A stretch of DNA of 64,000 nt, taken from contig CM059432.1 of NCBI GenBank assembly GCA_030390025.1, positions 21,330,001-21,394,000 of the forward strand, given 5' to 3'. Made by a program: the position numbers and the translations under genes. The DNA comes from Squalus acanthias (Eukaryota). Positions 12,324 through 40,800 of the stretch are shown here, in pieces. Numbering within the stretch: the first letter of the stretch is position 1; every line of letters starts with the position of its first letter. Under the pieces are notes generated by a model. The model worked only from the letters and a program-made list of their open reading frames with translations, did not search any database and had not been told where the DNA came from.

Positions 12324-15300
12324 TCAATCCTGGGATTGTTCATCCTCAGGATCCTGAGTTTCATTTGCTGCTTTGTCTTTAATTATTTTAACTGATTTTT
12401 GTTCCTCCCTCTTGGGGGTATAATGTTTTCCAGATCCCTTAGGGGGTTTGTCAGACCGTTTATTATCTTGACGATCCTCCTGTTGGGGTGGACGTTGGTT
12501 CTGCCGGGAATCTTTTTGATCCCCATTTCGGTTTTCCCGGTATCCTCCCATGGCTCTCTGATAGTTTTGGCCAGTGTAAAAGCTGTCCCCATGGGGAGTC
12601 CACTGTCCTTCGCTTTCCTTTTGAGGTCTAGCCCCTCGTCTATCCCATCTTTCTGGGGAGAAATATTTCTTGTATTGTGGGCGAGTTGGGGGTGTAAACC
12701 TTCTGGAATACCCTCCTGGGGGTCCCGAGCCACGGGTTTGTGTCTGGGCGGGGTGGACTTGAGACTTGGGTCTATACAGTCCTTGTTTCTGAGTACCAAA
12801 GGTACCTTCTCCGGTTTTTTTATCCCTAGTTTCTGATCTCATTATAGGTTTAGTTTAGGGTAGACCTAAGAGGTCATGGTTTAATTGGATAATGCGATTG
12901 ACATTATCCCATCTTTGTTGGTTATCTCGATAATCTTTTAGAGCACCCTCACAGGCAAGTTTGAGGGCTGTATTTTGGTATTGATTGGCCAGGCAACCAT
13001 GGACAATGTACCAGTTATCCTGTGTAAGTACTTTGCCTAATCTGTAGGTAGCTACCAGCCCTTTAGTTGTGGCTGTATTAGTGAGTATTTCCTTGATGGA
13101 ACCCATTACATGCCCTCCCTGAGTTGCCATGAGAACATAGGCGTATATTTGAACCCAGTTGTTACACTGGTTTAATGGGGGAATTAAGTCTGAACTTAAT
13201 ATCATTTGTAGTAGTTGCCTCAGGTGTTGGGCATTCCAATCTTGGCAACAGGTTTCCAATTTATCAAGGTTAGTTAGAATCCAGCAGGTTTTTTCCTGGC
13301 TGGTGTTTCCCGGTCTACCACACATTGTGTAGATAGAGCTCAGGTTTACTTGACCTAGGGGCGCAATGTGTGATTGCTGGGGTTGGCTTACTGGACATAG
13401 AAACATAGAAACATAGAAAATAGGTACAGGAGTAGACCATTCGGTCCTTCGAGCCTGCACCGCCATTCAATGCGTTCATGGCTGAACATGCTACCTCAGT
13501 ACCCCATTCCTGCTTTCTCGCCATACCCCTTGATCCCCTTAGTTGTGAGTGTTATATCTAACTCCCTTTTGAATATATTTAGCGAACTGGCCTCAACAAC
13601 CTTCTGTGGAAGAGAATTCCATAGATTCACCACTCTCTGGGTGAAGAAGTTCCTCCTCAGCTCAGTCCTAAATGGCTTCCCCTTAATCCTTAGACTGTGA
13701 CCCCTGGTTCTAGTTTTCCCTACCATTGGGAACATTCTGCCCGCATCTAATTTGTCTAAACCAGTCAGGATTTTAAATGTCTCTATAAGATCCCCCCTCA
13801 TTCTTCTGAACTCCAGAGGATACAAGTTCAGTTGACCCAATCTTTCTTGATATGTCAGTCCGGCCATCCCAGGAATCAATCTAGTGAACCTTCGCTGCAC
13901 TCCCTCAATAGCAAGAATGTCCTTCCTTAAGTTAGGTGACCAAAACTGCGCACAATACTCCAGGTGTGGCCTCACCAAGGCCCTGTACAACTGTAGCATC
14001 ACCTCCCTACTCCTGTACTCAAATCCCCTTGCTATGAAGGCCATCATTCCGTTTGCTTTCTTGACTGCCTGCTGCACTTGCATTCCCACCTTCAGTGACT
14101 GATGTACCATGACGCCCAGGTCTCGTTGCACATCCCCTTTCCCTAATCTGCCACCATTCAGGTAATAGTCCGCCTCTCTATTTTTACCACCAAAGTGGAT
14201 AACCTCACATTTATCCACATTGTACTTCATCTGCCATACATTTGCCCATTCACCCAACCTGTCCAAGTCACTCTGTAGCCTCCTAGCATCCTCCTCATTG
14301 TTCACACTGCCTCCCAATTTAGTGTCATCCGCAAATTTGGAGATATTACATTTAATCCCTTCGTCCAAATCATTAATATATAATGTAAACAGCTGGGGTC
14401 CCAGCACCGAACCCTGCGGTACCCCGCTGGTCACTGCCTGCCATTCTGAAAAGTACCCATTTACTCCTACTCTTTGTTTCCTGTGTGCCAACCAGTTCTC
14501 AATCCACGTCAACACATTACCCCCAATCCCATGTGCTTTAACTTTGCTCACCAATCTCTTGTGTGGGACCTTGTCGAAGGCCTTCTGAAAGTCCAAATAC
14601 ACCACATCTACTGGTTCCCCCCTGTCCACCCTATTGGAAACATCCTCAAAAAATTCCAGAAGATTTGTCAAGCATGATTTCCCTTTCACAAATCCATGCT
14701 GACTTGGACCTATCATGTCGCCACTTTCCAAATGGTCTGTTATGACATCTTTAATAATTGCTTCCATCATTTTACCCACGACCGATGTCAGGCTGACCGG
14801 TCTATAATTCCCTGCTTTCTCCCTCCCTCCTTTTTAAAAAAGAGGGGTTACATTGGCCACCCTCCACTCCATCGGAACTGATCCAGAGTCTAAGGAATGT
14901 TGGAAAATGATCGTCAATGCATCCACTATTTCCAAGGCCACCTCCTTAAGTACTCTGGGATGCAGACCATCAGGCCCCGGGGATTTTTCAGCCTTCAGTC
15001 CCATCAATTTTCCCAATACCTTTTCCCGACTAATAAGGATTTCCCTCAGCTCCTCCCTCTTACCAGATCCTCTGACCCCTTTTATTTCCGGCAGGTTGTG
15101 TGTGTCCTCCACAGTAAACACTGAACCAAAGTATTTGTTCAATTGATCCGCCATTTCCTTGTTCCCCATTACGACTTCCCCTGTTTCCGACTGCAGGGGA
15201 CCTACGTTTGTTTTTACTAACCTCTTTCTTTTTACATATTTATAGAAGCTTTTGCAGTCCATTTTAATGTTCTCTGCAAGCTTCCTTTCATATTTTATTT

Positions 15301-16855
15301 TCCCTGCCCTAATCAAACCCTTCGTCCTCCTCTGCTGAGTTTTGAAGTTCTCCCAGTCCCCGGGTTTGCTGCTACTTCTGGCCAATTTGTATGCAACTTC
15401 CTTGGTTTTAATACTATCCCTGATTTCCCTTGTTAGCCATGGTTGAGCCACCTTCCCTTTTTTATTTTTATGCCAGACCGGGATGTACAATTGTTGTAGT
15501 TCATCCATGCGATCTCTAAATGTCTGCCATTGCCCTTCCACTGATAGCCCCTTAAATATCGCTTGCCAATTTAACCTCGCCAATTCACGCCTCATACCCT
15601 CAAAGTTGCCCTTATTTAAGTTCTGGACCATGGTCTCTGACTTAACTGTTTCCTTCTCCATCCTAATGTAGAACTCCACCATACTATGGTCACTCTTCCC
15701 CAGGGGGCCTCGTACCACAAGATTGCTGATTAGTCCCTCCTCATTACACAACACCCAGTCCAGGATGGCCTCCCCTCGAGTTGGTTCCTCAACATATTGG
15801 TTTAGGAAACCATCCCTTAAACACTCCAGGAAATCCTCCTCCACCGTATTGCTTCCAGTTTGAGTAGCCCAATCTATATGCATATTAAAGTCACCCATGA
15901 TAACTGCCGTGCCTTTTTTGCACGCACCTCTGATTTCCTGTTTCATACCCTCCCTCACCTCACTACTGCTGTTTGGAGGTCTGTACACAACTCCCACTAA
16001 CGTTTTCTGCCCTTTGGTGTTCTGCAGCTCAACCCATATTGATTCCACATCCTCCAAGCTGATGTCCTTCCTAGCTATTGCATTAATCTCCTCTTTAACC
16101 AGCAATGCTACCCCACCCCCTTTTCCTTTTATTCTATCCTTTCTGAATGTTGAATACCCCTGGATGTTCAGTTCCCAGCCTTGATTGTTCTGGAGCCACG
16201 TCTCTGTAATCCCAATCACATCGTATCCGTTAACATCTATTTGCACAGTCAATTCATCCACCTTATTACGGATACTCCTTGCATTAAGACACAGAGCCTT
16301 TAGGCTTGTTTTATTAACATCCTTTGTCCTTTTAGACTTATGATTTAGGACCAGTAATCATTGCGCCTCCAGCATTTAGATAAGATTGAGCTAGTGCCTG
16401 TCAGCATTGATTATAATGGATTCTAAGCTGTCTATAGTTTTCTCAAAGATTCTGGTCATTTATTTCATCATGAGCTTGCCACCTTAACCGGAATCCATGG
16501 CCCCCAGGAGCATAGGCTGCTCCGGGTCCTACTATTCGACCATGGTTGCCACCACCTTGTTGGGCACCGTTCATTAGGCCTCCCAATTGTGCGGGTGTGC
16601 ACCTTATCATTAAGGAATTTAGCGTATTTGTAGTATTTGTTTGATTATCCCACTGGATATTCTGTATCCCCTGGTTCTGGGGATCTTCATCAATCGTGCC
16701 ATGAGTTCTAATGGCTCCGTCGGCATCAAAGCCTTCTATTTCAAAAATTATCACTTGGTTTTGTGGAGGTACAGGGATAGGATTATTTCCCCTAATAAAG
16801 CAATCGTTTGAATTTCCTAATAAAAGACTTGGCCAATTCCGACATGGTTTGCCAT
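12324..16855 (-). pseudogene. gag: Foamy-like gag, split by a CR1 insertion, with an in-frame stop at 12855
   Basis: ATG in ACAAAATGGCA at 16855; central region CNNWVQIYAYVLMATQG...GLVATYRLGKVLTQDNWYIVHGCL...HDLLGL resembles the spuma capsid; G/R/Q-rich C-terminus with no CCHC knuckle. Confidence 0.85.
13395..16340 (-). mobile_element. Young 5'-truncated CR1 LINE; near-complete ORF2 (APE endonuclease + RT) with one nonsense codon at 14834
   Basis: LNARSIRNK, ITETWL, GDFN, SDH, YLDFQKAFDKVPH, FADDTK; the 475-aa and 427-aa ORFs share a frame; (TTCTATGT)n tail at ~13395-13420. Confidence 0.96.
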
Positions 16856-18362: not shown

Positions 18363-19730
18363 GTGTTACATGCAGTTGTGTGGGACAGGCTGGATGGACT
18401 AGTGGGTCTTTTCCTGTCTGTCATTGTTCGTATGCTCGCATGCCACCCAGTCTGTGCCGCGTCTGATGAAAGTTAAAAAGAATGCATTGTAATACTGTAT
18501 ATTATCACATTGTACTCTGCTTCCCTCAGCTAATGAGCGACAAAAACTCACTTTCGATGGCTGGACAAGTCTGTCTATTGCAGGTTGCTAATCCAATTGT
18601 TAGACAACTCTCGTTTGGGACCTAAACATAACCATTTTATTTTTTGCTGCAAAACATGATTGTGCTTTTTTTAAATTAAAGTACTAAAGGCCCTCTTGGG
18701 ATTTTAAGCACTGTATTGGAATCGATGAGCCTTAACCTCCAAATAATGGATTGCAGTGATACATTGGGATTTTCCCATTTGTTAATTATGAACCTGAATG
18801 ATAATGAAATGGAGAATTTATGATCGCACTGAACAAATAAAGCTTGCTTTCCTATAGATCCATTAAGGGTAAAATGCAACTTTGGCGGGGGATGCAGAAC
18901 ATGCGTTAGTGGATCGATCACCCATTATACACCCCAACTGATTTTCCTTTCCATTGACTTCCATTGTCACCGTGAGACGCTATCCTACCTTTTACTTTCA
19001 GACACTGACTGGTCTGCTACTTATTTCTAGCAGTTTTCTACCGGATTCCAGCTTTTTCGAGTTTTCTTTTAATTTTCCTCTTTGTTCTTTGGAAATTGAG
19101 CCGTGTATCACGCCACTGTCAAAAGAAGCATCACAATGCGGCATTTTCACCGATCGACACAAACAGCTCGTCACTTTAGACAATGGCAATCAAAGAGCTG
19201 CCATTTTCCGTTAATATATCACATAATTTCAGAGTCCGGCACTGAGTATTCTCTTTTCATTATCAAACGGCCTGATATTTGTGATTTTAATTGAATTAAG
19301 ACTGACAGATTGTGCAGTGATGAATCCTTTATTCTCTGGTTTTGGTTCTGGGCAGGGTACAGAAGTCAACAAATCAGAATTTAAATATCACATCTCATTT
19401 TCACACAGCCTGTTCCCTCTAAATATTTGCATAGTGCATTGCAGAATTCATACCCTATTTTCAAAGGGAATTGGAAGTTTTGATGTTGTTGTCATGATTT
19501 TTTTCTACAAAGAGGTGTCATTGTTTCTTTACAGAATCGGCTTAATAAAATTAAATTATTATTGTGCAATTCAAGCAGTTCCAGTTCAAAGATTTCGTAT
19601 TATACGCATAGATATATATTTTGTTGATACAATAGTTTGAATTTGAATTTTTTTTCACAGCGGTCTAGTTTGCATTGTTGCAAATGTTGTATTTTAATTT
19701 GAGTATGAAGTAGTTTGTAATCTAAATGGG

Positions 19731-20410
19731 GTGAAAGAGCAAAGGGATCTCGGCATACACATACACAAATCACTAAAAGTAGCGACACAGATCAATGAGG
19801 CCATAACAAAAGCAAACCAAGCACTAAGATTGATTTCTAGAGGGATAGAATTGAAAAGTAGAGAAGTTATGCTAAACTTGTATCGAACCTTAGTTAAACC
19901 ACACTTGCAGTACTGTGTACAATTCTGGGCTTCATATTATAAAAATGATATAGAGGCACTGGAGAGTGTGCAGAGAAGATTTGCAAGGATGATACCAGAA
20001 ATGCGAGGGTATACATATCAGGAAAGGATGATCAGGCTGGGTCTCTTTTCTCTTGAAAAGAGAAGGCTGAGGGGTGACCTAATAGAGGTCTTTAAAATTA
20101 TGAAAGGTTTTGATAGAGTGGATACAGAGAGAATGTTTCCACTTGTCGGGAAGAGCATAACTAGAGGCCATCAATATAAGATAGTCACCAAGAAATCCAA
20201 TAGGCAATTCAGAAGAAACATCTTTACCCAAAGAGTGGTGAGAATGTGGACCTCGCTACTACAGAGAATGGTTGATGTGAATAGTATAGATGCATTTAAG
20301 GCTAGACAAGCAAATGATGGAGAAGGGAATAGAGGGTTATGCTGATAGAGTTAGCTGATTAAAGATGAGTCGAGTGGAGCATAAATGCCGGCATGGACTG
20401 GTTGGGCCAA
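19731..20410 (+). mobile_element. CR1 LINE 3' fragment
   Basis: 204-aa ORF with QRDLG, LYRTLVKPHLQYC, RRLRGDLIE, FTQRVV. Confidence 0.92.
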
Positions 20411-20639
20411 TTGGCGCGATTGGTGGTGGGACGGGTGGGCAAGTGTTTTTTTCCCCAGCGGGTCAGGACCCTACTGTGAACCCGCCACCACATGCCTTTA
20501 CTAAATGTTGGTTCTGTCAGCGCTGAGTAGACCCAACATGCAGTGGCGGGGGAGCCGATTAAAATCATTAGTGGCTTGTTTACAGCAGTGATTTTTTCCC
20601 CAGCTTTTTGAATTTGGCAGGTCACCCACCGGTTACCCG

Positions 20640-21151
20640 TGTTGAAGTTTCGACTTCCGAGTAAGACTCTTTAAACAATATCGTCAAAGAAGGCTTTATT
20701 ATTTACTTTACTTGCAAGGAGAATGCAACGATGACAGACTGAAGAAATCACAGAAAATGGAAGATCTTATACACTGAAAACACAAGCTTCCCATATCACA
20801 TGACATGTTGTTTAAAGTAAGCTAAGTTACGAGTTAAAAAACATAAGAAATGCCTTACAATGAGACTAGCTAATCTCTACAAAATGGAGTCTGTTTGTCT
20901 GTTCTTCTCCCACCAAGGCCAAGGCACCTGGCTGTTTACTTCACTATTCCTTGGTTATCTCAAGTTGATTAGAAGAAGCATAATTTGTTCTGTACTATGA
21001 AAACAACATAGTCTGCAAAGTTTAATTTCATTTCCATGAGAAGTCATAAACAACTTCTTTCTTTATTCAATACAAGTCAGAGTCGGCCATTTTGGATCAC
21101 TCTTTGTGTCTAGGAAGCCATTTTGTCTGAGACAAAAACTGCACTTCCACA
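20640..21151 (-). repeat. 3' LTR (512 bp)
   Basis: Direct repeat of 27787-28315; adjacent PPT AAAAAAGGGGGGAA at 21165-21152. Confidence 0.97.
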
Positions 21152-21430: not shown

Positions 21431-22829
21431 TTAAAAATTTATCTTACCCAATCGTCTTAGCTCTTCCCCTAGGGGACTGTCCTTCTCTTCCTCTTCATTT
21501 ATTTCCCTCTGTACTATCATACTTCCTCCAGGTATAACTGCCTTACCTAGCCTATTACAACAGCATTTAATCATTGTGACAAACAGAATTACTGCTACCA
21601 TTACTACTAATCCATACAATAATATTTGTCCCATTGATCCCAGCCATCCTCCCAGTATCCAGTCAAACCATCCTTGGTTCTTTGGATTCTTATACTGACT
21701 CACTGCATCTCTTATGTGTTTAACTATGTTAGTTATATTTTCTGAACTGTCTGGGATATAGGTACAACATTCACTCCCTATCAAAGCACAAGTTCCTCCT
21801 TTATTTGCCAACAGATAATCTAATGCCATTCGATTCTGCAATGTCATTACTCTTATAGCTAATATTTCAGCACTCATTTCGGACAATCCTTCCTCAGTTT
21901 AATTTGCCACTTTTTCTATCAGATCTGCTAGCTCGTTTACTGCTCCCATTAACTTCCCTATTCTGTATGGGGCTATTAATACTCCAAAGACTCTTTCATA
22001 AGTTGCTATCTCTCTTTTACTTCTTTGGAATTCATAATGTTCTCCTATATTGTCTAAAATGTGGATATAAGGTACTACATAACCCAAATAGCAGGACCCT
22101 GTCCAGTTATGTGGCAACCATGGATACGCCTTGTTCCCGCATATAAAATAGGTGCAATTATAGGCCGTCAAGTTACCCTCTCCTCCCATCCATATTCGGA
22201 TAGGGCCGCCTGTCCAGTGGGACCTACTGATTTTATTATTTACTTTAGTCCAGTCAAACTGAAAAAATCCCTGCTCAAGCAGGCCAGGAATTGGTGGTTG
22301 CCACATGACTGTTTGATGACAGGAACTCTCTCCGACTTTCTTTTCATCCTGCATCCTGCTTACTGCAGCCTGCTTTTTTTAAACATAATGCCCCTTGTAG
22401 TCTACCGACTCCTGAGGTATTAGTTAATACAAGAAACGGGGGTGTTCGAGTATGATTATAATTGGGCTGATACCACCCCTGGAAGGTGGTTAGGTTATAC
22501 CCTGCTGATCTCCACTGTTCTACATCTGAGGTCTTATCCGGGTCCCTTGAACTGTTTCTTCTTATTACCCATTCTGCTGTTTCGGAAGTATTAAAGGGAA
22601 TTGATCTGAGGGGGGTCCCTCCCGTGGTGTGAATAGGTATATGGGCACAGACCCAACAACTGGATCTACCACTAATTTTAGCATGCTCGTAAGACATGTA
22701 CAAGAAAGTGTTAACGTGTAATTCTCGTTTCTTTCGGGATCCTTCCCCACCTCTTTGGCACGTCATACGTATCAGTCCGATTAATATGCAAAAAATATAA
22801 GTAAAAGCTTCATTGTGTAAGTCCTTCAA
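21431..22829 (-). pseudogene. env: Gamma-type retroviral env, one frameshift (~22350) and one stop (21899)
   Basis: CWVC isomerase motif, RSKR furin site, fusion peptide, ISD LQNRMALDYLLANKGGTC, CX6CC (CALIGSECC), TM anchor. Confidence 0.95.
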
Positions 22830-23312
22830 AATTTAATTTTTTTGACTCCCTTTTTTCTGTCTATTACCCCCCACCCTGTGTTGTTTTGCATTTTACGTTT
22901 CCCTTATCACTTCTATTTGTCTTTTGATGCTTGATATTCGACCTTGCTGGCATTTCTGCTATCTATTCCTGGCTGCATGTTGTCAGTTTCTGTTCTAAGA
23001 ATTAAAACCCATCTTTGAATCTAACAGCTATTTCTTACAATTCCCTTCTTTGAGAAGGAAATAACCCTTATTGACTTCTCACAATCGGCTCTTGACTAAT
23101 CTAGCTAGTTCTTATTGCTCTCTCAACTTGGGCATTAGTTAGTAGGGAGTCTTGAAGATTTCCCCCTTCTAATAGTCCATTCCGGTGTTCCAATTCTGCC
23201 CCGCCTGGGGTATCCTCTGTTTCTTCTATCTTTCCTGATGTTACCCCGCCTGGGGTCTCCTCTACATTGCTTCGGATCTTCTCTTTCGGTGTGCTCAATT
23301 TGTTAGTGCTGG

Positions 23313-23880
23313 TTAGTCATGGGCATGAGTACCCAATTGGCTTGTGTATCTTACTACATAGGTTACATATATCAAATACACTATCATTACAAGTTGGAGA
23401 ACTACCAGAGCGTGTGAAATAATATGAATGTAAGGGTGTGCTGATGTATTAAGCCCAATATCCCACCCGTTGTCCCCTATGCTGTCAATTTCAATATCTA
23501 TTCTCGAGTTGTCTTCCTTCAGAACATAAACATGCTTTAGGGAGGAGTTCAGTCGCATCATGAGCTCACTGATAACCTTAGACAACAGGGGAATGTCGTA
23601 TCTGAATTATGCCACATAATTGTGCAGCTCATACTTAAGTATCTCATTTACTGTCAGTTCACTTGAGCATAGGTTTCGATATTATGTAAAACGTGTTGAT
23701 TGATGGGACAGGTCCTGTTAGATCCGTAAAGCATGGTAGTTGCGGTAGTAGTGACACAGGAGGCACCACCAAAACCACCTCATACTGGATTCGCACTGGT
23801 TTTTCCCACGCTCTGTTACCTACAAAACACAATTATTACAGTCACAGTTAAATTCAGTCTTACAATCATTTCAAGTGACA
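23313..23880 (-). pseudogene. env: Remnant of a second, non-gamma glycoprotein C-terminus (tentatively lokiretrovirus-like env)
   Basis: Cys-rich GGASCVTTT...YGSNRTCPI, then a heptad-like stalk, WDIGLN...HPYIHIISH and a hydrophobic TM ALVVLQLVMIVYLIYVTYVV. Confidence 0.5.
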
Positions 23881-25649
23881 TTACAGTTTAACATCTAATC
23901 AACAAATCATGGACTTAAAAGATTCTCCAGATCTCTCTTTTACTCATATCCATCTTGTGGATAATTCTTACTAAACATGATTTCTCCTTAGCCCTCAATT
24001 GTCCCAATTCAGATTCCAGGTAACTCTCCACTTCAACTTCAATTTCAATCCCTCTAACAGGTACCAGTGTATTTAACTCTATTCTGATTGTTTCATTAAT
24101 TAGATAGTTTCTCGATGGAGTATGTGTCAATGCTTTAAAAGTTGTCTCGCTCTCCTGAGCCACATTAACCATTTCATGTTTTGCTGTTGTCAAGTAACTG
24201 AGCATGTCTGAGACCCGTTCTTCAGTGCAAATTCAACATACATTTCCAGATGGTAATCGCTTCATACGTAACAAATCACATTTGCACACTCATACCGGTA
24301 TTTCAATATCATGCCACATGTGCCTTTCTCGGGCTTTCAGGTATCTTATCATAAGATTGTCTTTGTTCGTCTTCCTCTGCATGGTCCCGATGTCTTGGAT
24401 AGTGGCCAGGCTATCATATTCAGTTTTCTTAAAAAGTTCATTATAGGCAGGGACACAAATGTCTCCAAGAGAAAGCTATCAATTTATTATTCTTAGCTAC
24501 ACTTTCCTGACTTTCACCAGAAAGTTTTTTTAAAATTCCCATTCAGCAGTGTAATTCTCCTGTTTCAATCTTACACCTTCAATCACTTCCTCTCTAATTA
24601 TTATTCATATCTCATTCATGAGCCCTGGAGAAACTTTACTGTCCAGTACAATATTTAAGATTGAAAACATAGATCAAACATTCTCACTAGGTCCAAGTTA
24701 TTAAAACTTTTTATTTATCATTATTTTAGAGGATCTTTTATTTTCCCAAAAGTAACCCAATATATATATAGTGCCTGAGTCCATTTTGTTATTACAACAT
24801 TATCCCAAAATCCAAACAGCAGTACTGTTGAATTGATAGGTTTTGTCAATGTTCAATTTCATTTCTATCAATTTATCTTATCAATTCCAATTTCAGAAAC
24901 AAATGATTACCAGGCTAGGTGGTTTATACAGTGTTTTAACATTAGAGACAGAAGTGCTGCAATTAGTTTACAAGGTAACTTCCATATAACAAAGGAAAGA
25001 AGAGACTCCATTGTGACTCTACTTAGAGCCCAAGGAGTTAATTTTTCAAATCATAATTTTCCTTCTGTCACTGTGGGGAAACATTAACTTAAAATTAATA
25101 ATGTCCAATATCTTTAAATGTCATCTAAAGTTGTTGCTCGGTGAACTTAATCAGCTGTCAGTGGAAAGGGTTAACTCCTTTGCAGGTCTTTAAGAAGGTG
25201 AGCGAAACATTGTCAGGTGCACGCAATTGCATCACTTCACATAAATTTAAAAAAACTTTCCCGATCCAAAAAAGCAGTTGTGTTTTCACACTTTAACTAA
25301 ACACGAACAGAACAGATAAAACAAAACAAAATAGCACATGCTTGCAGAAGCAGTAAATTACATCATATTTCTTATTGTCCTTTCTTCAGATGTCTTTCCA
25401 AAATACTGTAAAAACATTGAATATAACTGGAGAAAAATTAGTTTTTCACATTTAAGCAAATCAAATCAAACTGCGTTGGAAGATTTCACCATAGCAACCG
25501 CGACTCCAAGGTTAAATCTTAGACCGAAACTTAATCTTTTGTTAAACAAACTTTTTGTTGTTCTTCTCAGTTTTTACACACCAGCTTAACTTAAATTGTA
25601 GTTCAAAGTTTTTTTTTCTAATTCTTGGGGCACAATGCTTTCCCTGCAA

Positions 25650-25800
25650 AGTCTGATATAAAATTCCTGTCTATCCCTGACAGTAAAGGCAAATTTCCCT
25701 TGTGATTCCTCTGCCAATGGTATGGACCAGAACCCGTTCTGTATCCAAGACTGTAAATATTTCAAAATCTGGTTTCAGACCATTAAATATCTTATTCAAT
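25650..25800 (-). pseudogene. pol: Short retroviral RT remnant
   Basis: Manual translation LNKIFNGLKPDFEIFTVLD/NGFWSIPLAEESQGKFAFTVRDRQ with one frameshift. Confidence 0.8.
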
Positions 25801-26440
25801 GCGGTCTACACAAATTTACACCAACCAGAATTTCACCGTGCACAATGAAAGTCTGGTTTTTAATAGGTTAATTAACCTCAATAATTCCAATTCAATCCAG
25901 ATCAATTTAAAAAAAAAACTAACCAGTGTCAGTTGGAAAAGAAAGAAACCATAGTCACATTAACAAAGAAACAATTACCCATGACTTGTAAACATTCAAA
26001 TTAATTTTCTTTCCAGGCACATTGGCAACTGTGACTTCAAGGCTGAAGCTTATACCTCTTTTGTAAAACAATTAACAAACTTAAACCAACAACGCTTGAT
26101 TATCATTCAAGACAAGTCTTCAAAGGGTTAAACAGCTTTTAGCTCTCTGTACAAAAGAGTGGGTGGAGCTAAAACATAAACAAAATGACAGACACCTTTT
26201 TTTTTAGACAGATTTTTTCAGACAAAATAATACTGTAACTTAACAAACCTAAACATTCACAGTCAGTTTTTCTTTCACCCTTTTCACACACACTTTCACC
26301 AACTGAGATCCCAGTATTCCTTTTAAGATTCCTTTCACTCAACAAATCTTGTGTATTAGCTTTTATCTCGGCACAGACATTAATAACTTCCATGCCGATA
26401 AAACTTTAAATTTCTTCTTTTTTTACATTCCTTTCAGATT

Positions 26441-27032
26441 TCAATGTCGGTAAATTCCTTCTACATACACCTGTAGTCCCTTTTCTGAACAAATTATTGT
26501 TGCTTGCATTTTGCATAGCAAATCTCTCCCTAAAAGGTTCATAGGAGCATTGTCTGATAGGAGAAAGGCATGTTGGTCAGAGAAATTGTCTGCTTGTATT
26601 GAATAAATAGTATTCTGGTCCGTCGGTGTTGCGGAAGCTGCTTGCTCCATTAAGAGGGAAACTTTATTCTTTTGGTCCCTATTTCTCTCCTGAATTCCTT
26701 TCAGATTTTGTGTCAATTCAGGAGTTGTTTTATGTCTCCAATCTAGGCAGACTAAAGTCAGTGGTTCTTTAAGTTCTGTTCTGAGACCATTTACGAGGGC
26801 ATTGATTAAAGGAATCTGGTAATTTTCTTTGGTCATTCCAATTTGCGAGACAGTCCTCTAGACATGTAATTCTGTCTAGGTTAAAAGTTCCATCAATAGG
26901 GAACGGGTGTTTGTCATTCTTGGTCCATTTAGACCAATCAGACAAATCCCTTGTGGATGTCCGACCACAGTTCTGGAAGATGTAAAAAGCTGGAGTTCCT
27001 TTTTCTGGGATCTTACTCTGTGAAGTTCCCAT
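26441..27032 (-). pseudogene. gag: Internally deleted epsilon-like gag (MA and end of CA) fused to the protease C-terminus
   Basis: MGTSQSK myristoylation signal, FPIDGTFNLD, ALVNGLRTELK, then HAFLLSDNAPMNLLGRDLLCK. Confidence 0.85.
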
Positions 27033-27760: not shown

Positions 27761-27778
27761 ATCTCGGTGGGACCTCCA
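27761..27778 (-). promoter_or_regulatory. Primer-binding site, tRNA-Gln
   Basis: TGGAGGTCCCACCGAGAT, the 18-nt complement of the tRNA-Gln 3' end; GTAAGT donor at 27744-27739 just downstream. Confidence 0.93.
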
Positions 27779-27786
27779 AGAAATAC

Positions 27787-28315
27787 TGTCGAAGTTTCGA
27801 CTTCCAAGTAAGACTCTTTAAACAATATCATCAAAGAAGGCTTTATTATTTACTTTACTTGCAAGGAGAATGCAATCATAGCCAAATAGCTACGATGACA
27901 GACTGAAGAAATCACAGAAAATGGAAGATCTTATACACTGAAAACACAAGCTTCCCATATCACATGACATGTTGTTTAAGGTAAGCTAAGTTACGAGTTA
28001 AAAAACATAAGAAATGCCTTACAATGAGACTAGCTAATCTCTACAAAATGGAGTCTGTTTGTCTGTTCTTCTCCCACCAAGGCCAAGGCACCTGGCTGTT
28101 TACTTCACTATTCCTTGGTTATCTCAAGTTGATTAGAAGAAGCATAATTTGTTCTGTACTATGAAAACAACATAGTCTGCAAAGTTTAATTTCATTTCCA
28201 TGAGAAGTCATAAACAACTTCTTTCTTTATTCAATACAAGTCAGAGTCGGCCATTTTGGATCACTCTTTGTGTCTAGGCAGCCATTTTGTCCGAGACAAA
28301 AACTGCACTTCCACA
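27787..28315 (-). repeat. 5' LTR (529 bp)
   Basis: Matches 20640-21151 except about 6 substitutions and a 17-bp indel (counted by eye). Confidence 0.97.
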
Positions 28316-29834
28316 CCCGCTGTGCCTAGACCTCGTCTGTGAAGCTGAGGCGGGAGGTCACTTGCCATTGAATCAGCTGATGAGTTGTCAGCTTCAAATG
28401 TCAAGTCAAAACTCCCAGCTGATTGAGAAATCTTCCCTTAACCACTAGCTTCTCTAAACTGCATTTTCACTACAGATTCAGAATGCTGCAAGTCTTTACA
28501 CAGGTCTCCATCCAGTCTGACCTCATTACTTCTCCCACCATTGGCAGATCACTTCTGTCATCTTTACTTCACCTGCCATCTATTCCATCAGCATGGGTGC
28601 CCTTGAAACTCTCTCACCTTGGTCCTCAGTATCCTATCACGATCAGCCCCAACACCAGCAGCACCAGGCACACCAGCAGCACCAACAACAACACCACCAA
28701 ATTTCCCCGCAATCACCTAATGATGCACAGGATAGAGGGCATCAGCACCCGACCACATTGCTGCCCGGAAGGCCAAGGGTGGCTTCACCATGGTCACATT
28801 TACTTCATTTGATGCTGTACACCCTGGCTGCCACATGATGTGCCAGGTTGGTACCACCCCCCACAAACACCATAAAGCATCCCTGCAATGCCCAAGCCAT
28901 TCCATTCACACTCATCACCATTGCGGGGGGTACCGTTATGTCTCACCATTCACTGCAACTCACTACGCCACTTCCAAAGGTGCACACAAATCTGTCCAAG
29001 AATACAAAGTGTTGAAAAAAAAGTTTCAATGTTTGACACCACATTAACAGAAACTTTACATGAACATTGCATAAAACATCCAAATGCCTACCCTTGTGTG
29101 TTGTTAGTTGGTATGATTGCACTAGGATGAGGGTGAGTGTGAGGGGTGGCTAGTGAAATGGGGATGTGATAATGTAGATAGAGAGGGATGGGTGGAGGTG
29201 CAAGGTAAGTTGGTGTGAGTAAGGATATGCAGGAGTAGGGTAGGGAAGGTAGAGTGATGGGGATGTGATGAGAGGCACAGCAGGATGCAGGTGAGTGTGG
29301 CTTTGTACTAACGTTTCGTGATCTACTGAGATCATTGAAAGGTTTGCGGCACTGCACCCAGGTACTCCTGATGACATCCCTGCTTGTGCCCTCCTGTGCA
29401 ATGTGCAACCAGGCTGTGTTGATCTCCTGGGGAGGTGTCTTCCGCCCATGGGAAGTGAAAAGGACCTCCCCACATGCTGTGACTCCCTCTATAAGCATAT
29501 GGAGGGAGTCATGGGAGAACCCGGGTGCAGCCCTGCGCCTCTGTGCAGTGCTTGTCAGTGTTTGCAGCACCTCAATGCTGTTGAACACTGACAGCACAAC
29601 TGTCAAAATAAAGTTGGCCATGGTCCCTTTAAGGAAACCGGCTGATGACGCATCATCAAATGACGTCACCAGACCCGCTTTCTCTAATTGGTTGGGAAAT
29701 GCACTGGGCGGGCTTAACAAGCCCTATCAAGGGAAATTTATTTCAGAGGCCGGGATGGAGCCAGCAGCGGTTTCGGGACCCGCCACCAACGTTGCCCACC
29801 ACGGACCCGCTGAGCTTAGTAAAATCGCGGCCAA

Positions 29835-30292
29835 TGTATTTATGGCACAGAAACAGGCCACTCAGTCCAACAAAGCCAGTGTTTATGTTCCACACAGCCT
29901 CCTCCCACCCTTCTTCATCTAACCCCATCAACATATCCTTCTATTCCTTTCTCCCTCATGTGCTTATCTAAATTCTCCTTAAATGCATGTATGCTATTTG
30001 CCTCAACTACTCCTTGTGGTAGCGAGTTCCACATTCTAACCATTCTCTGGGTAATGAGGTTTCTCCTGAATTCCCTATTGGATTTATTAGCGACCATCTT
30101 ATATTTATGGCCCCTAGTTCTGGTCTCGCCCGCAAGCGGAATCATCCTCTCTATGTCTACGCTATCAAAATCCTTCATAATCTTAAACACCTCTATCAGG
30201 GCATGCCTTAGTCTTCTCTTTTCTAGAGAAAAGAGCTCCAGCCTGTTCAATCTTTCCTGAGAGGTATAAGCTCTCAGTTTTGGTATCATTCT
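29835..30292 (-). mobile_element. CR1 LINE 3' fragment
   Basis: RLELFSLEKRRLR, TRGHKYK, WNSLPQ. Confidence 0.9.
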
Positions 30293-31023
30293 ATGTAACT
30301 GTAATGTCACACATGTCACCATGTGCACTTCTCCAATCTTCTGACTGGTAGACTGTTTAACGCTTTAGAGACAAGGCCAAATATAAATTGTCAAACTGCT
30401 TTATTTTAGAAACAGCAAGGGAATGCACAGAATACCATTTATTGTAAATCGCACCTTACTTTAACTTAATTCTGTAACATCCTTTGCAACATAAGAAATA
30501 ACAAAATACACCATGCTATCCTTGTTAGTGAACAAAGTGGACTCTTCTACCAGAGAATTCTTTGAAACTAGTTGGCGCTGAACTTAGGTGAGAAACCTTT
30601 CTCTCTCTCTCTAGGTATAGCTGCCTCACTAGCTCGCCCTGACTGTCACAGACCATTTGATTCTTTGTCCCTTTGGCCGGACAGGAAGCCAAGGGCTTGA
30701 CCTCTGACCTTCTTCCAGCTTTCTGCGGCCGGGGATTGACCAGCTGACCTGGCAATTAAACAAGCTACTGCCCTCCTAGGTAAGGGTCCTCTGCAACTAT
30801 CTCTGCGCCTCTCAAATAAATAGGTCACCTTAACATAAGTGGATGTTGACTGGAATGTGTAGGTGTTCCTCCATTGTCTAAGGTTGAAGTCGTATGCAGG
30901 ACGCACCATTTCACTGGCTGGTTTAAGATTTATGATGTGAGCATGCCCTGTGCGCATGCCTACCAGCTCTCTCATTGCTGAGTTGCACAGCAAAGCTTTC
31001 TCTCATACAGCATGACCCACTAC

Positions 31024-34569: not shown

Positions 34570-36392
34570 ATGGAGAGGGTGAGAGAACGCGCTCATCGCT
34601 TCACCGAGCGGGCCTTGGATGCTCTGGTTGGCGCAGTGGAGCGCAGACGATGCATGCTGTTCCCGGAGAGTGGCAGGAGGCCTTTGCCACGCGAGTTCAG
34701 AAGAGTGTGGAGGGAGGTGGCTCAGAGCGTCTCCTCCAGGAGCATGGTGCCCAGGACCCATGTTCAGTGCCGCAAAAAATTCAACGACCTCACTCGGGTC
34801 GTCAGGGTGAGTGGCTTTTTCTCAATACCTCTCCATCCCTCCATCTCAACCTCACTATATGGCCAGAGGGTCTTAAAACCCCAATGCACAACACTCATGC
34901 AACACCTATGGCCCTTTCATCAAACACACACACACATTCCACACTTTGCATACAGTAAGGGCTATTCACCTATGGGAGGCACATCAGGCAAGACCATGGC
35001 TGCATATTGTAAGGGCTATTCACCTATGGGAGGCACATCAGGCAAGACCATGGCTGTATATTTACTCAGATGCTGTCCTTTTTCTTGCAGGCTAAGCTGG
35101 CTCATAATCGGAGACAGCAGCAACGGACGGGTGGAGGGTGGCTTCAGCTGCAACCCCTCAGCGATCTGGAGGAGCGCGTCCACAGGATTGTGGCAAGCCG
35201 GGTGATCGGTCGCGTCGCCACTGGGGACGCCGACCCCGTTGTGGACAGCAATGGTAAGGTCATCACCTTTTTGTCCTCTGTCCTTCCACTTGTCCCTCAC
35301 AATACCAGCCTTTGACACTTTCAATCCAACTTGCTAACTCGCTGCACTTATTCCTCCCTTACTGCCACCCTGTCCTCACGCTAAAGCCACTCTTGTACCT
35401 CCCTGCTTTCAGATGGTGATTCACCAGCTGAGGAGATGGTCCCTGAAGCTGCCACTGGGAGTGATGCTGCAGCTGAGGATGAAGAGGAAGCCGGAGCATC
35501 AGTGCCACCCTCTCCCGAGGAAGCCCATGGCCACACTGGGAACACGCCTTCCCCGGAGGGGAGCAGGGGGGAAGGGGCTGATGATGGTGAAGCTCCAGGA
35601 CCCAGCGGGCTGCAGCAACGCCATGGGGGGGGGAGGGAAGAACGGGAGCCTTCTCCCCAGAGGGAGAGTATGCCAGACACTCCTACTGCAATGGACGCAG
35701 AGGAGGAGCGGCTGATTGCAGAAATGAACAGCCAGGCGGTGGGCATGCACACTGAGCTCATGGGTGCAGTGGGAAGGGTGCCCGAATGCATTGAGGCACT
35801 GGCAAGGAGTATGGAGCACTTCGCTGTAGCACAGGCGGATGCCACACTAAAGCTTAGTGCTGCAATTCAGTCACTGGTTGCCAGGAACCCATCTGAGACT
35901 GCTCTCATGCAGACTCAGATTGAGGCCACGCGAGCACTGACTGCTGCCATCCTCGATGGTTCGTGCACATGTCCCCGGGGCTGTCACCGCGCCGCAGCAG
36001 GCCAGCAATCTGTTCTCCGGCAAATTGCTCCGGATGCTGAAGTGCTGCCCCGTGGGAGTGCCAGTGTGTCGGGCGAGCAGGGAGTTGCTGTCCTCTCTCA
36101 CGATGACAGCATTCCTGCAGCCAACACTGTCACTTCTCCACTGCACTTGCCACCGCCTGTAGGACAGACTGCTGCCGCCCATGCAGAGTTGGTGCAGTCT
36201 GCAGCCGGGCCCTCCAGGCCCAGAAGTGGTCGAGGCCGTCCTTCAGGGGCATCTGCAGTGTCAGGGTCTGACGAGCAGCAGCCTTCCACCAGCCTTGCTG
36301 CAGCCACTGAGGTCCCATTACGGAGGAGCAGTAGGGTTAGAAGGGGGGAAGTGCGCAAGGGAAGGAGATCACCCTCGAAGGGCAAAAAGTAG
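34570..36392 (+). CDS. Harbinger Myb/SANT-like DNA-binding protein, 3 predicted exons (34570-34806, 35091-35253, 35413-36392), 459 aa
   Basis: RAHRFTERALDALV...WREVAQSV...QCRKKFNDL; GT-AG introns of phase 0 and 1 give an uninterrupted frame; basic NLS-like C-terminus. Confidence 0.85.
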
Positions 36393-36686
36393 GAGGTGTG
36401 CCAAAATGCTGGTCATTTTTTTATTAAAGGCCGAGGTTCATGGCCCAACTTTTGTTTAGTGTTTTGGACATTATCTCCAGGTTGTGAGAACCAGTTATGT
36501 TATTGACTGTTTTTTTGTGTTTATTTCTATGAGTTTGTCATGAGGAATTGACACACACAGAGTTTGTACAATAAATAAGTTTCTGTATTCAAAATATACA
36601 TGGCTGGTGGTTGGAATTATTGGTGCCTTGGCCGGCTTAGGGGTTGCGTGCTGGGTTGATTCGTGTTTGTAGCAATGGCAGGGGCC

Positions 36687-37847
36687 CTAGAAGCGGCTTG
36701 CTATTAGTCGTTGACGGACGGCCCTTGCAGTTTGACCATTGTGGGCCGCCCTCCTGCCTTGGTGCTGCTGCTGATCATCGTCCTCGTCCTGTTCCTCCTC
36801 TTCCTCCTCCTCCTCTTGTGGTGCTGCAAGGCCTGGTGGCATTGGCTGCGTCCTGAGGATTGCCATGTTGTGCAACATGCAGCACACGACTACGAAGTTC
36901 GAAACTTGCTCAGGCGAGTACTGCAGGGCTCCTCCGGAATGGTCCAGACAGCGGAATCGTTGTTTCAGCACGCCGATTGTGCGCTCAATAATGTTCCTGG
37001 TTGCTTGATGGCTTTCCTGGTACCGCAGCTCAGCAGGGGTGTTTGGCGCACGGAGCGGTGTCATCAGCCAGGTGCTCAATGCGTACCCCTTGTCCCCCAG
37101 AAGACAACCAACTGGCTGATGCGGTGCCTCGAAAATTTCTGCCACAGTACTCTGGCGCAGGATGAAAGCATCGTGGCAGCTGCCCGGATAGTGGGCATTG
37201 ACAGCGAGAATCACCTGTCTGTGGTCACAGACCAACTGCACATTCAAGGAATGGAACCCCTTTCTGTTCCGGAACTCCTCTGCATTCTCTCGCGGAGCAC
37301 GCAAAGCCACATGCGTGCAGTCAATGGTGCCCTGCACCATGGGGAAGCCCGCTACCCTCGCAAAGCCCATAGCACGGTCATGCTGCTTGTCTGGGGTCAT
37401 AGGGAAAGAGATGAAGTCTCGTCTCCTTCTGAAGAAGGCATTGGTGACCTGCCGGATGCAGCGATGCACCGCAAACTGGGAGATATTGGCGAGGTCCCCA
37501 ACAGCAGCTTGGAATGAGCCAGTGGCGTAGAAGTTCAAAGCCACTGTGACCTTCACTGCCACCGACAGAGACGTCCTGGACCTCAGCTGAGGCTGCAGAT
37601 CTGGCTGCAGCAGGTGGCAGAGCTCAGTGACCACCTCCTTGCTGAATCGCAGCCTTCGCAAACACAGCTCCTCGGACATATGGATGTAGGAGAGCTGTTC
37701 ACGATATACCCTGGGAGGGTAAGCTCTCCTGTACATGCGCCTGATGGCCCTCCTCCGTCTGGCCATCATTGCCACTCTCTGTCTGCGTCTCACTATCCTC
37801 CGATTGAGCTGGAGCAGGACGACGCCCCCAATCATTGCAGCCCCCAT
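36687..37847 (-). CDS. Harbinger DDE transposase (HARBI1 family), intact, 386 aa
   Basis: IDCTH, NRKGFHSLNVQ, PGSCHD, LGDKGY, IERTIG.LKQRF, CCMLHN; no stops. Confidence 0.95.
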   Translation of the reverse strand: MGAAMIGGVVLLQLNRRIVRRRQRVAMMARRRRAIRRMYRRAYPPRVYREQLSYIHMSEELCLRRLRFSKEVVTELCHLLQPDLQPQLRSRTSLSVAVKVTVALNFYATGSFQAAVGDLANISQFAVHRCIRQVTNAFFRRRRDFISFPMTPDKQHDRAMGFARVAGFPMVQGTIDCTHVALRAPRENAEEFRNRKGFHSLNVQLVCDHRQVILAVNAHYPGSCHDAFILRQSTVAEIFEAPHQPVGCLLGDKGYALSTWLMTPLRAPNTPAELRYQESHQATRNIIERTIGVLKQRFRCLDHSGGALQYSPEQVSNFVVVCCMLHNMAILRTQPMPPGLAAPQEEEEEEEEQDEDDDQQQHQGRRAAHNGQTARAVRQRLIASRF

Positions 37848-40800
37848 ATTCTCTTTGCCAGAAAAGTAATGAGGTACAGCAACTAAAGTAGCAGCAAAGT
37901 TAGGATGAACTAGGCCAAACTACCTCACAAAGCGTTGAGTCAATGTAGAAGTCTCTCTCTCTCTCTCTCTCTCCGAATCTCTCTCTCTCTCTCAGAACGA
38001 GTGGTGCATAAATGTCGACCACAGAAAAAGACAGGAAGAGGCCCTCTTTAAATAGCGCCCCCCCCAGCCCCACACCGATTGATAACGTTCCAGTCTTCCG
38101 GTCGTTGGAAGCGCCAGGCGGTAAGGCAGGGGGCGCCACTCAATTTCCGCTCCGGGGCGCCCCAAGGGCGTTGCACCATGGAATGACGTCACAATCTGCG
38201 CGCGCAGGTGGTCGCAGCGGTAAGTTTTAGCGCCGCCGCACAATCTCAAGTTAAGTTCTCGAGCGGCGCAAACAGCGCTGCGCCCGGGCCTTAGCGGCTT
38301 AACGCCCCATTAGCGCCCTCTTAAGGCGCTAACGGGAGGCGCAACCAACTGAATTTTTCCCCCTTAATATTCAAGGGTACAAGGTGTTCAGAAAAGATAG
38401 GGAAGGAAAAAAGGGAGGTGGGGTGGCAGTGCTGATTAAGGAAGACATTGTAGTGTTGGAAAGGGAGGATGTTCTTGAGGGGACAAGGACAGAATCCATT
38501 TGGTTAGAGTTGAGGACCAAAAAGAGTATGATCATGCTATTGGGGGTATTCTACAGGCCTCCAAATAGTGAGAGGGAGGTAGAAGAGCAAATCTGCAGGG
38601 AAATCGCAGAGACATGCAAGAGCTTTAGAGTGGTGATATTGGGGACTTTAATTACCCAAATATCGATTGGGATAATGCTAGGGTAAAGGGAAAGGAGGAG
38701 GAGGAATTTCTGAAATGTGTTAAGGAGAATTTCCTTGACCAGTATGTTCTTGGCCCAACTAGGAAGGAGGCATTGCTGGATCTGGTGCTGGGGAATGAGG
38801 TGGGCCAGGTCGACCAAGTGTCTGTGGGAGAACACTTGGGTACGAGTGATCATCGTATCATAAGATTTAGATTAGCAATGGAGAGGAGCAAGGAACAATC
38901 TAGAGTGGAACTTCTAAACTGGGATAGGGCTAATTTCAATGGGATGCAAAAGGATCCAGCCAGGGTAAAATAGAACCAAAGACTGACAGGAAAAACTGTA
39001 ACGGAACAATGGGTGATCTTTAAGGAGGAGATGTTCCAAGTACAGGCTAGGTACATTCCAACAAGAGGGAAGGGTAAGGGAACCAAAGCAAGGGCTCCTT
39101 GGATGACGAGGGAGATAGAGAAGATGATGAAACAAAAAAAGAGGGTGTATGATGCATGTCAGGTGAATTCTTCAAGGGAGAACCAGATCAAATACATTAA
39201 GTTGAGAGGGGAAGTGAAGATGAAAATAAGATTGGCAAAGAGAGAATATGAGAGTAGAATGGCGGTTAACATAAAAGGGAACCCAAAAATCTTCTACCGG
39301 CATGTAAACATTAAGCGGGTCATAAGAGGCGGGGTAGGGCCTATTAGGGACAAAGAAGGTGATATATGCTTAGAGGTGCAGGACAAGGCTAGAATACTCA
39401 ATGAGTACTTTGTATTGGTGTTTACTAAGGAGGTGGATGCTGACAAAATGTCAGTAGAAGTGGAAAAGGTAGAAGCAATGGAATGGGTGAAAATTGATAG
39501 ACAGGTTGTACTAGAAAGGCTGGGTATGCTTAGAGTAGATAAGTCGCCTGGTCCAGATGGCTTGCATCCCAGGTTGCTAAGGGAATTGGGGGAGGAGATA
39601 GCAGAAGGGCTTGCCATAATTTTCCAATCTTCCCTAGATGCGAGGGAGGTGCCTGAGGATTGGAAATTGGCAAATGTGACACCATTGTTCAAGAAATGGT
39701 GTAAGGACAATCCTAGTAACTACAGGCCAGTCAGTTTAACATTGGTGGTGGGTAAAGTTTTAGAAACAATAATCAAGGAAATAATTAACAGGCACTTGGA
39801 GAGGTTTAAGCTAATTAAGGAGAGCCAACACGGATTTGTAAAAGGCAGATCATGTTTGACTAATCTAATTGAATTTTTTGATGAAGTAACAGGGATGATC
39901 GATGAAGGGAATGCAATGGATGTTGTCTACATGGATTTTAGGAAGGCGTTTGACAAAGTACCACATAGAAGGCTGGTTATCAAAATTGAGGCTCATGGAA
40001 TAGGTGGGTCAGTGGCAGCTTGGATAAGGAATTGGCTTAAGGACAGAAAACAGCGAGTTGTGGTAAATGACTGCTTTTCAGTCTAGAGGATGGTAGACAA
40101 TGGTGTTCCCCAAGGGTCAGTGCTGGGACCACTGCTTTTTTTGATATATATAAATGACCTGGATATTGGAATACAGTGTAGAATTTCTAAATTTGCCGAT
40201 GACACCAAACTTGGGGGTGTGGCAAACAGTGAGGATGATACCAATTGACTGCAACAGGACATAGAAAGGCTAGCAGAATGGGCAGACAAGTGGCAGATGG
40301 AATTTAATACTGAGAAGTGTGAGGTGATGCATTTTGGCAGAAGGAACAGGGAGAGGCAATATACACTTACTGGCACAACTTTAAAGAGTGTGCAGGGACA
40401 GAGGGACCTGGGAGATAATGTGCACAGGTCCCTGAAGGTGGTGGGACATATTGAGAGAGTGGTTAGCAAAGCATATGGGATCTTGGGCTTCATAAATAGA
40501 GGTATTGAGTACAAAAGTAGAGAAGTTATGCTGAACCTTTATAAAGCACTGGTTAGGCCACAACTGGAGTATTGCATCCAGTTCTGGTCACCACACTTTA
40601 GGAAGGATGTGAAGGCACTTGAGAGGGTGCAGAGGAGATTTACCAGAATGGTTCCAGGGATGGGGAATCTTAGCTACAAGGACAGGTTGGAGAAGCTGGA
40701 TTTGTTTTCATTCGAGCAAAGGAGGTTGAGGGGTGATTTGATAGAGGTGTACAAGATTATGATGGGTTTGGATAGGCTAGACGGGGAAAGACTGTTCCCA

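What the first reader, a model, noticed from the sequence alone, without database searches (positions are those of the whole stretch)
23030..25870. Chimeric provirus: RT and second env-like remnant from a different retroviral lineage inside a class I ERV
Seen: between epsilon-like gag/pro and a gamma-type env lie an RT piece reading FTVLD.NGFWSIPL (class I RTs usually read D/NAFFS), a Cys-rich CVTTT..YG..TCPI segment, and a stalk plus TM (WDIGLN..HPYIHIISHALVVLQ) with no ISD or CX6CC. Known: lokiretroviruses have env related to paramyxo/pneumovirus F proteins. Inference, from remembered motif resemblance only: these are lokiretrovirus-like pieces captured by recombination, giving one provirus two unrelated envelope classes. 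No internal LTR pair or TSD indicating simple nesting was seen.
Basis: partly seen in the sequence, partly recalled or inferred. Interest (0 to 1): 0.75.

Follow-up and report, generated by a model that had tools for sequence, protein, structure and literature searches.

The report
Multi-copy two-lineage mosaic retrovirus, not loki
This is a young, defective, multi-copy retrovirus fossil whose polymerase genes are replaced by a dead 3.6-kb block carrying scraps of a second retroviral lineage (likely snakehead-retrovirus-like, not lokiretrovirus), and the same block sits inside several different proviral families, which suggests repeated swapping between distant retroviruses.

Summary
The motifs are real, and the mosaic is not a one-off. 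It lies in a 7.7-kb provirus (LTRs differ at 6 of 512 sites; 4-bp TSD) and recurs at many loci. Between a class I protease and a gamma-type env, RT-RNaseH-IN is replaced by a cassette (26430-22839): a copy of class I leader, a broken RT, 1.8 kb of unknown DNA, and the last ~150 codons of a second env.

The RT is 92-94% identical (DNA) to a separate family in this genome whose motifs match snakehead retrovirus (PQGFH, LLQYVDD), not loki (PFG in 24 of 24). The env scrap belongs to a family that looks F-like, a class also matched by walleye and foamy envs, so it is no loki hallmark. It shows no purifying selection (omega ~1.35) while gag and gamma env do, so there were probably never two working envelopes.

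The cassette also sits in other LTR families, including ones with 5-bp TSDs. The scan earlier found SnRV-like, F-env proviruses elsewhere in this genome. Cross-class recombinants are published. New variant of a known kind; moderate interest.

The parts
28316..28319 (.). Target-site duplication CCCG (other copy 20636-20639), 4 bp
27787..28315 (-). 5' LTR (TG..CA); 6 substitutions in 512 aligned sites and one 17-nt indel against the 3' LTR
27761..27778 (-). Primer-binding-site-like 18-mer, 8 nt from the LTR (tRNA-Gln type, assignment recalled)
   Evidence: sequence
26463..27032 (-). Class I gag-pro remnant with internal deletions; 89-98% to a parent family that has a class I pol
26040..26430 (-). 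X1: displaced copy of the class I leader just upstream of the gag ATG (94% to L095); also present in derivatives of the SnRV-like family
25791..26040 (-). X2: linker of unknown origin, shared with SnRV-like derivatives (85-90%)
25636..25790 (-). SnRV-like RT remnant, frameshifted and internally deleted; 5 of 20 sister copies keep the PQGFH..LLQYVDD part
23850..25635 (-). Y: 1.8 kb AT-rich segment of unknown origin, evolving neutrally (omega about 1.1); no protein, Rfam or env match
23313..23770 (-). C-terminal remnant (last Cys strands, stalk, TM) of an F-like env of the SnRV-like group, 33-34% to family-B env
22839..23312 (-). Z: 3' part of the cassette, origin unknown; joins the class I genome about 25 nt before the env ATG
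21431..22813 (-). Gamma-type env (ISD, CX6CC, TM), broken in this copy by a frameshift and a stop
20640..21151 (-). 3' LTR, preceded by a polypurine tract

Best explanation
This is one copy of a defective, multi-copy class I ERV whose RT-RNaseH-IN region is replaced by a non-coding 3.6-kb cassette, likely assembled by template switching between co-packaged RNAs of a class I virus and probably SnRV-like (class III) viruses, and likely spread in trans by class I helper proviruses. Shown: the mosaic anatomy, many copies with their own LTR pairs and TSDs, both parent lineages in this genome, and the cassette inside several LTR families. Inferred: the copy of class I leader (X1), present in both the mosaic and SnRV-like derivatives, gave the homology, and perhaps the packaging signal, that let RNAs of two classes meet and recombine; the RT and second-env scraps were dead passengers before the spread; gag and gamma env stayed under selection; RT and integrase came from the class I parent family, which fits the 4-bp TSD.
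For: 40 of 40 scored DNA hits at 95-100% (1299 candidates); 150 of 150 scored protein hits at 94-100% (2310 candidates). 20 of 20 fetched loci carry the cassette, 18 with the window-type gamma env behind it, 14 with window-type LTR matches at both ends. LTR pairs mostly 96-99.6% alike. Cassette RT nests in the family-B clade (100/99), the parent pol in a class I clade (100/100). Parent RT reads DLCSAFFSIPI. X1 maps to the parent leader and is in 9 family-B-type loci, absent from 3. 17 of 20 mosaics show the derived RT deletion and none the undeleted state; the undeleted state with X occurs in 3 family-B loci. Omega: gamma env 0.57 (p 1e-4), gag 0.46 (p 5e-4), env remnant 1.35, Y 1.09. Second sample: 12 of 20 in another class I chassis, 8 in other contexts, 0 window-type. 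The cassette tree needs 8 chassis changes against a minimum of 2.
Against: No tree with SnRV or loki reference sequences was run; lineage rests on motifs read by eye. Both samples are ranked by likeness to the window and are biased. The excess of synonymous changes in gag and env comes from singleton changes (shared ones not significant), and protease shows none (omega 1.5, 15 changes). The packaging role of X1 is untested. Y, X2 and Z, about two thirds of the cassette, have no known source. Starred branches force only 2-3 chassis changes per group. Order and direction of transfer were not tested on a rooted tree.
Confidence: 0.8

Rival explanations
1. Lokiretrovirus pieces were captured by a class I ERV.
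For: NGFW motif occurs in many loki RTs. Donor env family has RxKR, fusion peptide, coiled coil and TM and looks F-like, as described for loki Env (PMC7947760).
Against: 24 of 24 loki RTs shown read PFG(Y/L); the cassette and family B read PQGFH and LLQYVDD like SnRV. Family-B RNase H resembles SnRV's by eye. Top fold hits are walleye epsilonretrovirus and foamy envs. Cartilaginous fish are not in the published loki host list.
Confidence: 0.03
2. A deleted class III element inserted into class I pol at DNA level (nesting); later deletions removed its LTRs and the class I RT, and the product was then amplified.
For: Heavily deleted family-B derivatives carrying X1-X2-RT exist as LTR-bounded elements. 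Nested insertions are common in these loci.
Against: No class III LTR piece at either cassette end. The cassette begins with class I leader sequence. Junctions fall at the end of protease and the end of IN. The same cassette sits in unrelated LTR families.
Confidence: 0.1
3. The cassette is a selected cis-acting RNA module (packaging, dimerisation, export or silencing escape) that each chassis acquired because it raises mobilisation.
For: Found with 12 LTR clusters among 19 loci tested (threshold-dependent); over 2000 first-look candidates; contains a leader copy.
Against: No test of function; no Rfam match; many copies delete parts of Y, the env scrap or X. Passive hitchhiking through shared homology explains the spread. 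Compatible with the best explanation, not exclusive.
Confidence: 0.3
4. The family once expressed two functional envelopes of different classes.
For: Both env types are in sense orientation inside one LTR pair.
Against: Only the C-terminal 120-150 residues match the env profile, with no signal peptide, cleavage site or fusion peptide; shared stop and omega 1.35.
Confidence: 0.04

Closest known systems
Snakehead retrovirus (SnRV) clade ERVs, including the SnRV-like lineage of elephant shark CmiERVs (PMC4977317 passages; PMC12193657 passages)
   Same: Donor RT and RNase H motifs match SnRV by eye; donor elements have 5-bp TSDs.
   Different: Here only scraps survive, inside a class I genome. SnRV env itself was not compared.
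XtERV-S (PMC8278194 passages) and ERV-SA.a-Ppe (bioRxiv 2021.11.23.469661 passages): class III pol with class I env
   Same: Cross-class recombinants in anamniotes.
   Different: Those swap a working gene. Here a class I genome lost its pol and gained dead class III pieces, and the block moved on to other LTR families.
Epsilon-related class I ERVs with gamma-type env in fish and amphibians (bioRxiv 2021.11.23.469661)
   Same: The chassis: parent RT without the gamma-specific insertion after AFTF, env with ISD and CX6CC, 4-bp TSD.
   Different: RT-RNaseH-IN replaced by the cassette; non-autonomous.
Non-autonomous retroviral derivatives such as mouse VL30 (properties recalled; only a search listing seen)
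   Same: LTR-bounded, no working pol, many copies, presumed mobilised by helpers.
   Different: Keeps gag and env under some selection and carries pieces of two retroviral classes.
Lokiretroviruses (PMC7947760)
   Same: F-like env architecture in the donor family; tether plus RNase H.
   Different: RT signature not met; F-like env is also matched by epsilon and foamy envs.

Membership tests
Lokiretrovirus | RT of the loki clade (PFG(Y/L) after the QYTW strand in 24 of 24 published sequences seen) | tested here: not met
   PQGFH in cassette and family B; one stray PFG[YL] match in 50 loci scanned in six frames (L062, which also has PQGFH)
Lokiretrovirus | Env similar to paramyxo/pneumovirus F (SP, RxKR, FP, coiled coil, TM) | tested here: inconclusive
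   Donor family: architecture, Atlas 0.93 to Fusion_gly, Foldseek E 6e-5 on a pLDDT-40 model; no PF00523 hit. Not loki-specific
Lokiretrovirus | RNase H grouping with foamy viruses; IN grouping with CGIN1; smc gene in some | not tested
   No trees; RNase H resembles SnRV by eye
SnRV clade (donor of RT) | RT and RNase H motifs as in SnRV | tested here: met
   By eye: LDIxNGFWSI, QYTWTRxPQGFH, LLQYVDDI..SED, LGLFNxCR, DGSR..TGWA..SAQVAELVAL
SnRV clade (donor of RT) | Supported grouping with SnRV in an RT tree | not testable with these tools
   No tool returned SnRV as a usable sequence; tree lacks it
Class I ERV with gamma-type env (chassis) | TM with ISD and CX6CC | tested here: met
Class I ERV with gamma-type env (chassis) | Class I pol | tested here: met
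   Absent from this copy; parent family with 87-97% protease identity has a class I RT; a related mosaic keeps a class I IN end (MLVIN_C E 2.5e-15)
Non-autonomous ERV family | Many LTR-bounded copies with TSDs and no working pol | tested here: met
Non-autonomous ERV family | Mobilisation in trans by a helper | not testable with these tools
   Inferred from missing RT/IN and the class I parent family

The most novel reading that the evidence does not exclude
A non-coding RNA cassette, built from class I leader plus class III scraps, acts as a mobile packaging or fitness module that has hopped among many LTR families of two retroviral classes in one germ line, showing routine co-packaging and two-way recombination between class I and SnRV-like retroviruses.
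Probability: 0.3. Interest if true: 0.65.

Novelty: new variant of a known kind. Interest (0 to 1): 0.4.

Why it matters
Recombination between distant retroviral classes is known mostly from single env swaps. Here both parent lineages, intermediates and products are in one genome, with young copies and readable junctions, so the rules of cross-class co-packaging could be studied from sequence. It also warns annotators: an F-like env or an NGFW motif does not identify a lokiretrovirus, and RT-based classification would misfile this family.

Tried and rejected
Public protein searches with the env scrap, the 60-aa RT piece and the 517-codon read-through of Y (0 hits in 1.84 billion) found nothing. 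Viral contig scans were empty. PDB sequence search with the 60-aa RT piece ranked MLV first (E 2e-8) above foamy (2e-4); this is against my reading but the PDB lacks SnRV and the longer RT tree separates it from class I. Pfam and PDB profile searches did not detect F in the env family (one Baculo_F hit of 20 members, E 3e-4). First Atlas search (C-terminal half) gave rhabdovirus-like glycoproteins at 0.90-0.92, a weak result that disagrees. Single-sequence fold failed (pLDDT 32). Y as a coding remnant: longest ORF p 0.13, stop-poor stretch p 0.05, no codon-position bias. The 26-nt pattern count (61) was meant as a junction count but the sequence is native to the parent's IN end, so it is rejected; so is my first idea of a microhomology deletion there. 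Rfam: none. Sequencing runs: no RNA holder listed; contigs of 4 runs lay on the element, uninformative on expression; one contig skips the whole provirus but the flanks are repeats. Literature searches listed no description of this mosaic; bioRxiv supplements were not seen, and copies may be among the cartilaginous-fish ERVs of 2021.11.23.469661.

Full report
Observation. The region lies in a minus-strand provirus bounded by LTRs at 27787-28315 and 20640-21151 (6 substitutions in 512 sites, one 17-nt indel) and a 4-bp TSD, CCCG. Pfam finds a retroviral protease upstream, a weak RT hit, and TLV_coat downstream. The host is probably a cartilaginous fish (inference: 3.7-Gb genome; the nearest named pol relative is a shark protein).

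It replicated as a unit. The env-like piece has 40 of 40 scored hits at 95-100% among 1299 candidates; a Y frame has 150 of 150 at 94-100% among 2310. I fetched 20 of the 40. All 20 carry the cassette; 18 have the window-type gamma env behind it, one has lost env, and one (L032) has another class I env, LTR and an integrase end; 14 match the window LTR at both ends. LTR pairs are mostly 96-99.6% alike.

Both parents are in the genome. A search with the RT piece (20 of 150 hits fetched) led to family B: own gag, pol with tether, RNase H and IN, and an env with no Pfam match. The window RT is 92-94% identical to it in DNA. A search with the protease (7 of 150 fetched) led to a class I family with a 1190-aa pol whose RT reads DLCSAFFSIPI. 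In a tree of 21 RT rows (5 candidates dropped for lack of my anchor motif) cassette RTs nest in family B (100/99) and the parent in a class I clade (100/100). Against the parent, the cassette replaces everything from the end of protease to about 25 nt before the env ATG. It is a replacement, not an insertion, and no class III LTR piece borders it.

Lineage of the donor. In the RT alignment of Wang and Han (PMC7947760; main text parts 1-2 of 4, supplement parts 1 and 71 and two searches) SnRV reads ISNGFWSI, QYTWTRLPQGFH, LLQYVDDI..SED and LGLFNFCR, as family B does. All 24 loki RTs on that page read PFG(Y/L). The 5 of 20 mosaics that keep this part read PQGFH. Family-B RNase H also resembles SnRV. 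Elements of the donor group have 5-bp TSDs (4 loci), a length given for class III in PMC8278194 (passages). This is comparison by eye, not a tree with references. Against it, the 60-aa piece hits MLV best in the PDB, which holds no SnRV.

The second env. It aligns to the C-terminal end of a diverse env family in this genome (33% to family B, E 3e-16 in sister copies; alignment; profile iE 9e-22). Full-length relatives have a signal peptide, RxKR site, fusion-peptide-like stretch, coiled coils and TM. The Atlas places one beside Fusion_gly and Baculo_F clusters (0.93). A low-confidence model (pLDDT 40) hits WDSV, WEHV1 and foamy envs and paramyxo/pneumovirus F. So F-like is likely but not loki-specific; foamy Env is linked to F in PMC11468914 (search listing). 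Only about 150 of about 690 codons remain. A stop precedes the TM in 17 of 17 other copies where the codon was readable (19 examined). Crude omega among up to 19 copies: env scrap 1.35, Y 1.09, gamma env 0.57, gag 0.46, protease 1.5 on few changes. 4 of 20 copies keep an open gamma env frame.

The cassette travels. X1 is the class I leader next to the gag ATG (94% to L095) and is also in 9 family-B-type derivatives but not in 3 fuller ones. A small RT deletion marks 17 of 20 mosaics; X with the undeleted RT is seen only in 3 family-B loci, which suggests but does not prove passage through a class III derivative. In a second sample (20 of the 150 hits) 12 sit in another class I chassis, 8 in other contexts, none in the window's. 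19 cassette-bearing loci give 12 LTR clusters at 80% over 60% (threshold-dependent, some LTRs partial), and the window's own cassette core groups with copies of another chassis; the tree needs 8 chassis changes against a minimum of 2.

Mechanism. Most likely, defective RNAs of two classes were co-packaged, helped by the shared leader piece, RT switched templates, and the products were integrated by the helper matching their LTRs. Anatomy, copies and parents are shown; co-packaging, the role of X1 and the order of events are inferred.

Comparison. Class III pol with class I env is published (PMC8278194 passages; bioRxiv 2021.11.23.469661 parts 1-2 of 6 and passages). SnRV-like and epsilon-like ERVs coexist in elephant shark (PMC4977317 passages). 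My searches listed no report of this mosaic. Earlier notes of this scan reached the same SnRV-not-loki verdict for other loci in this genome; none matched this stretch by sequence. Verdict: real, multi-copy, cross-class mosaic; loki and two-envelope claims fail; new variant of a known kind, interest 0.4.

Noticed in passing
L063-L092: At least four divergent subfamilies (30-50% identity) of an F-like env with variable N-terminal heads, no Pfam match, many copies.
   Followed up: partly
L093-L099: A class I ERV family with many near-identical copies and LTR pairs up to 100% alike; several env and LTR variants share one pol.
   Followed up: partly
L058:1563-7156: A further SnRV-like gag and pol piece (63% to family B RT) followed by the cassette and a second F-like TM tail, so two class III RT pieces and two env tails in one LTR pair.
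   Followed up: partly
L116, L117: Cassette joined to the start of a gamma env and to another integrase, inside 428-bp identical LTRs with 4-bp TSDs.
   Followed up: no
L052, L053, L056, L058, L061, L062: Class III chassis have PBS-like 18-mers that look like tRNA-Ser types (assignment recalled).
   Followed up: no
window 28320-29800, and inverted pair 35825-37856 / 61792-63837: Harbinger-like transposon remnants by the look of their frames (name recalled); the provirus is inserted beside one.
   Followed up: no
window 14834-16357, 19698-20345, 29915-30364: CR1/L2-type LINE remnants, many in the window (name recalled).
   Followed up: no
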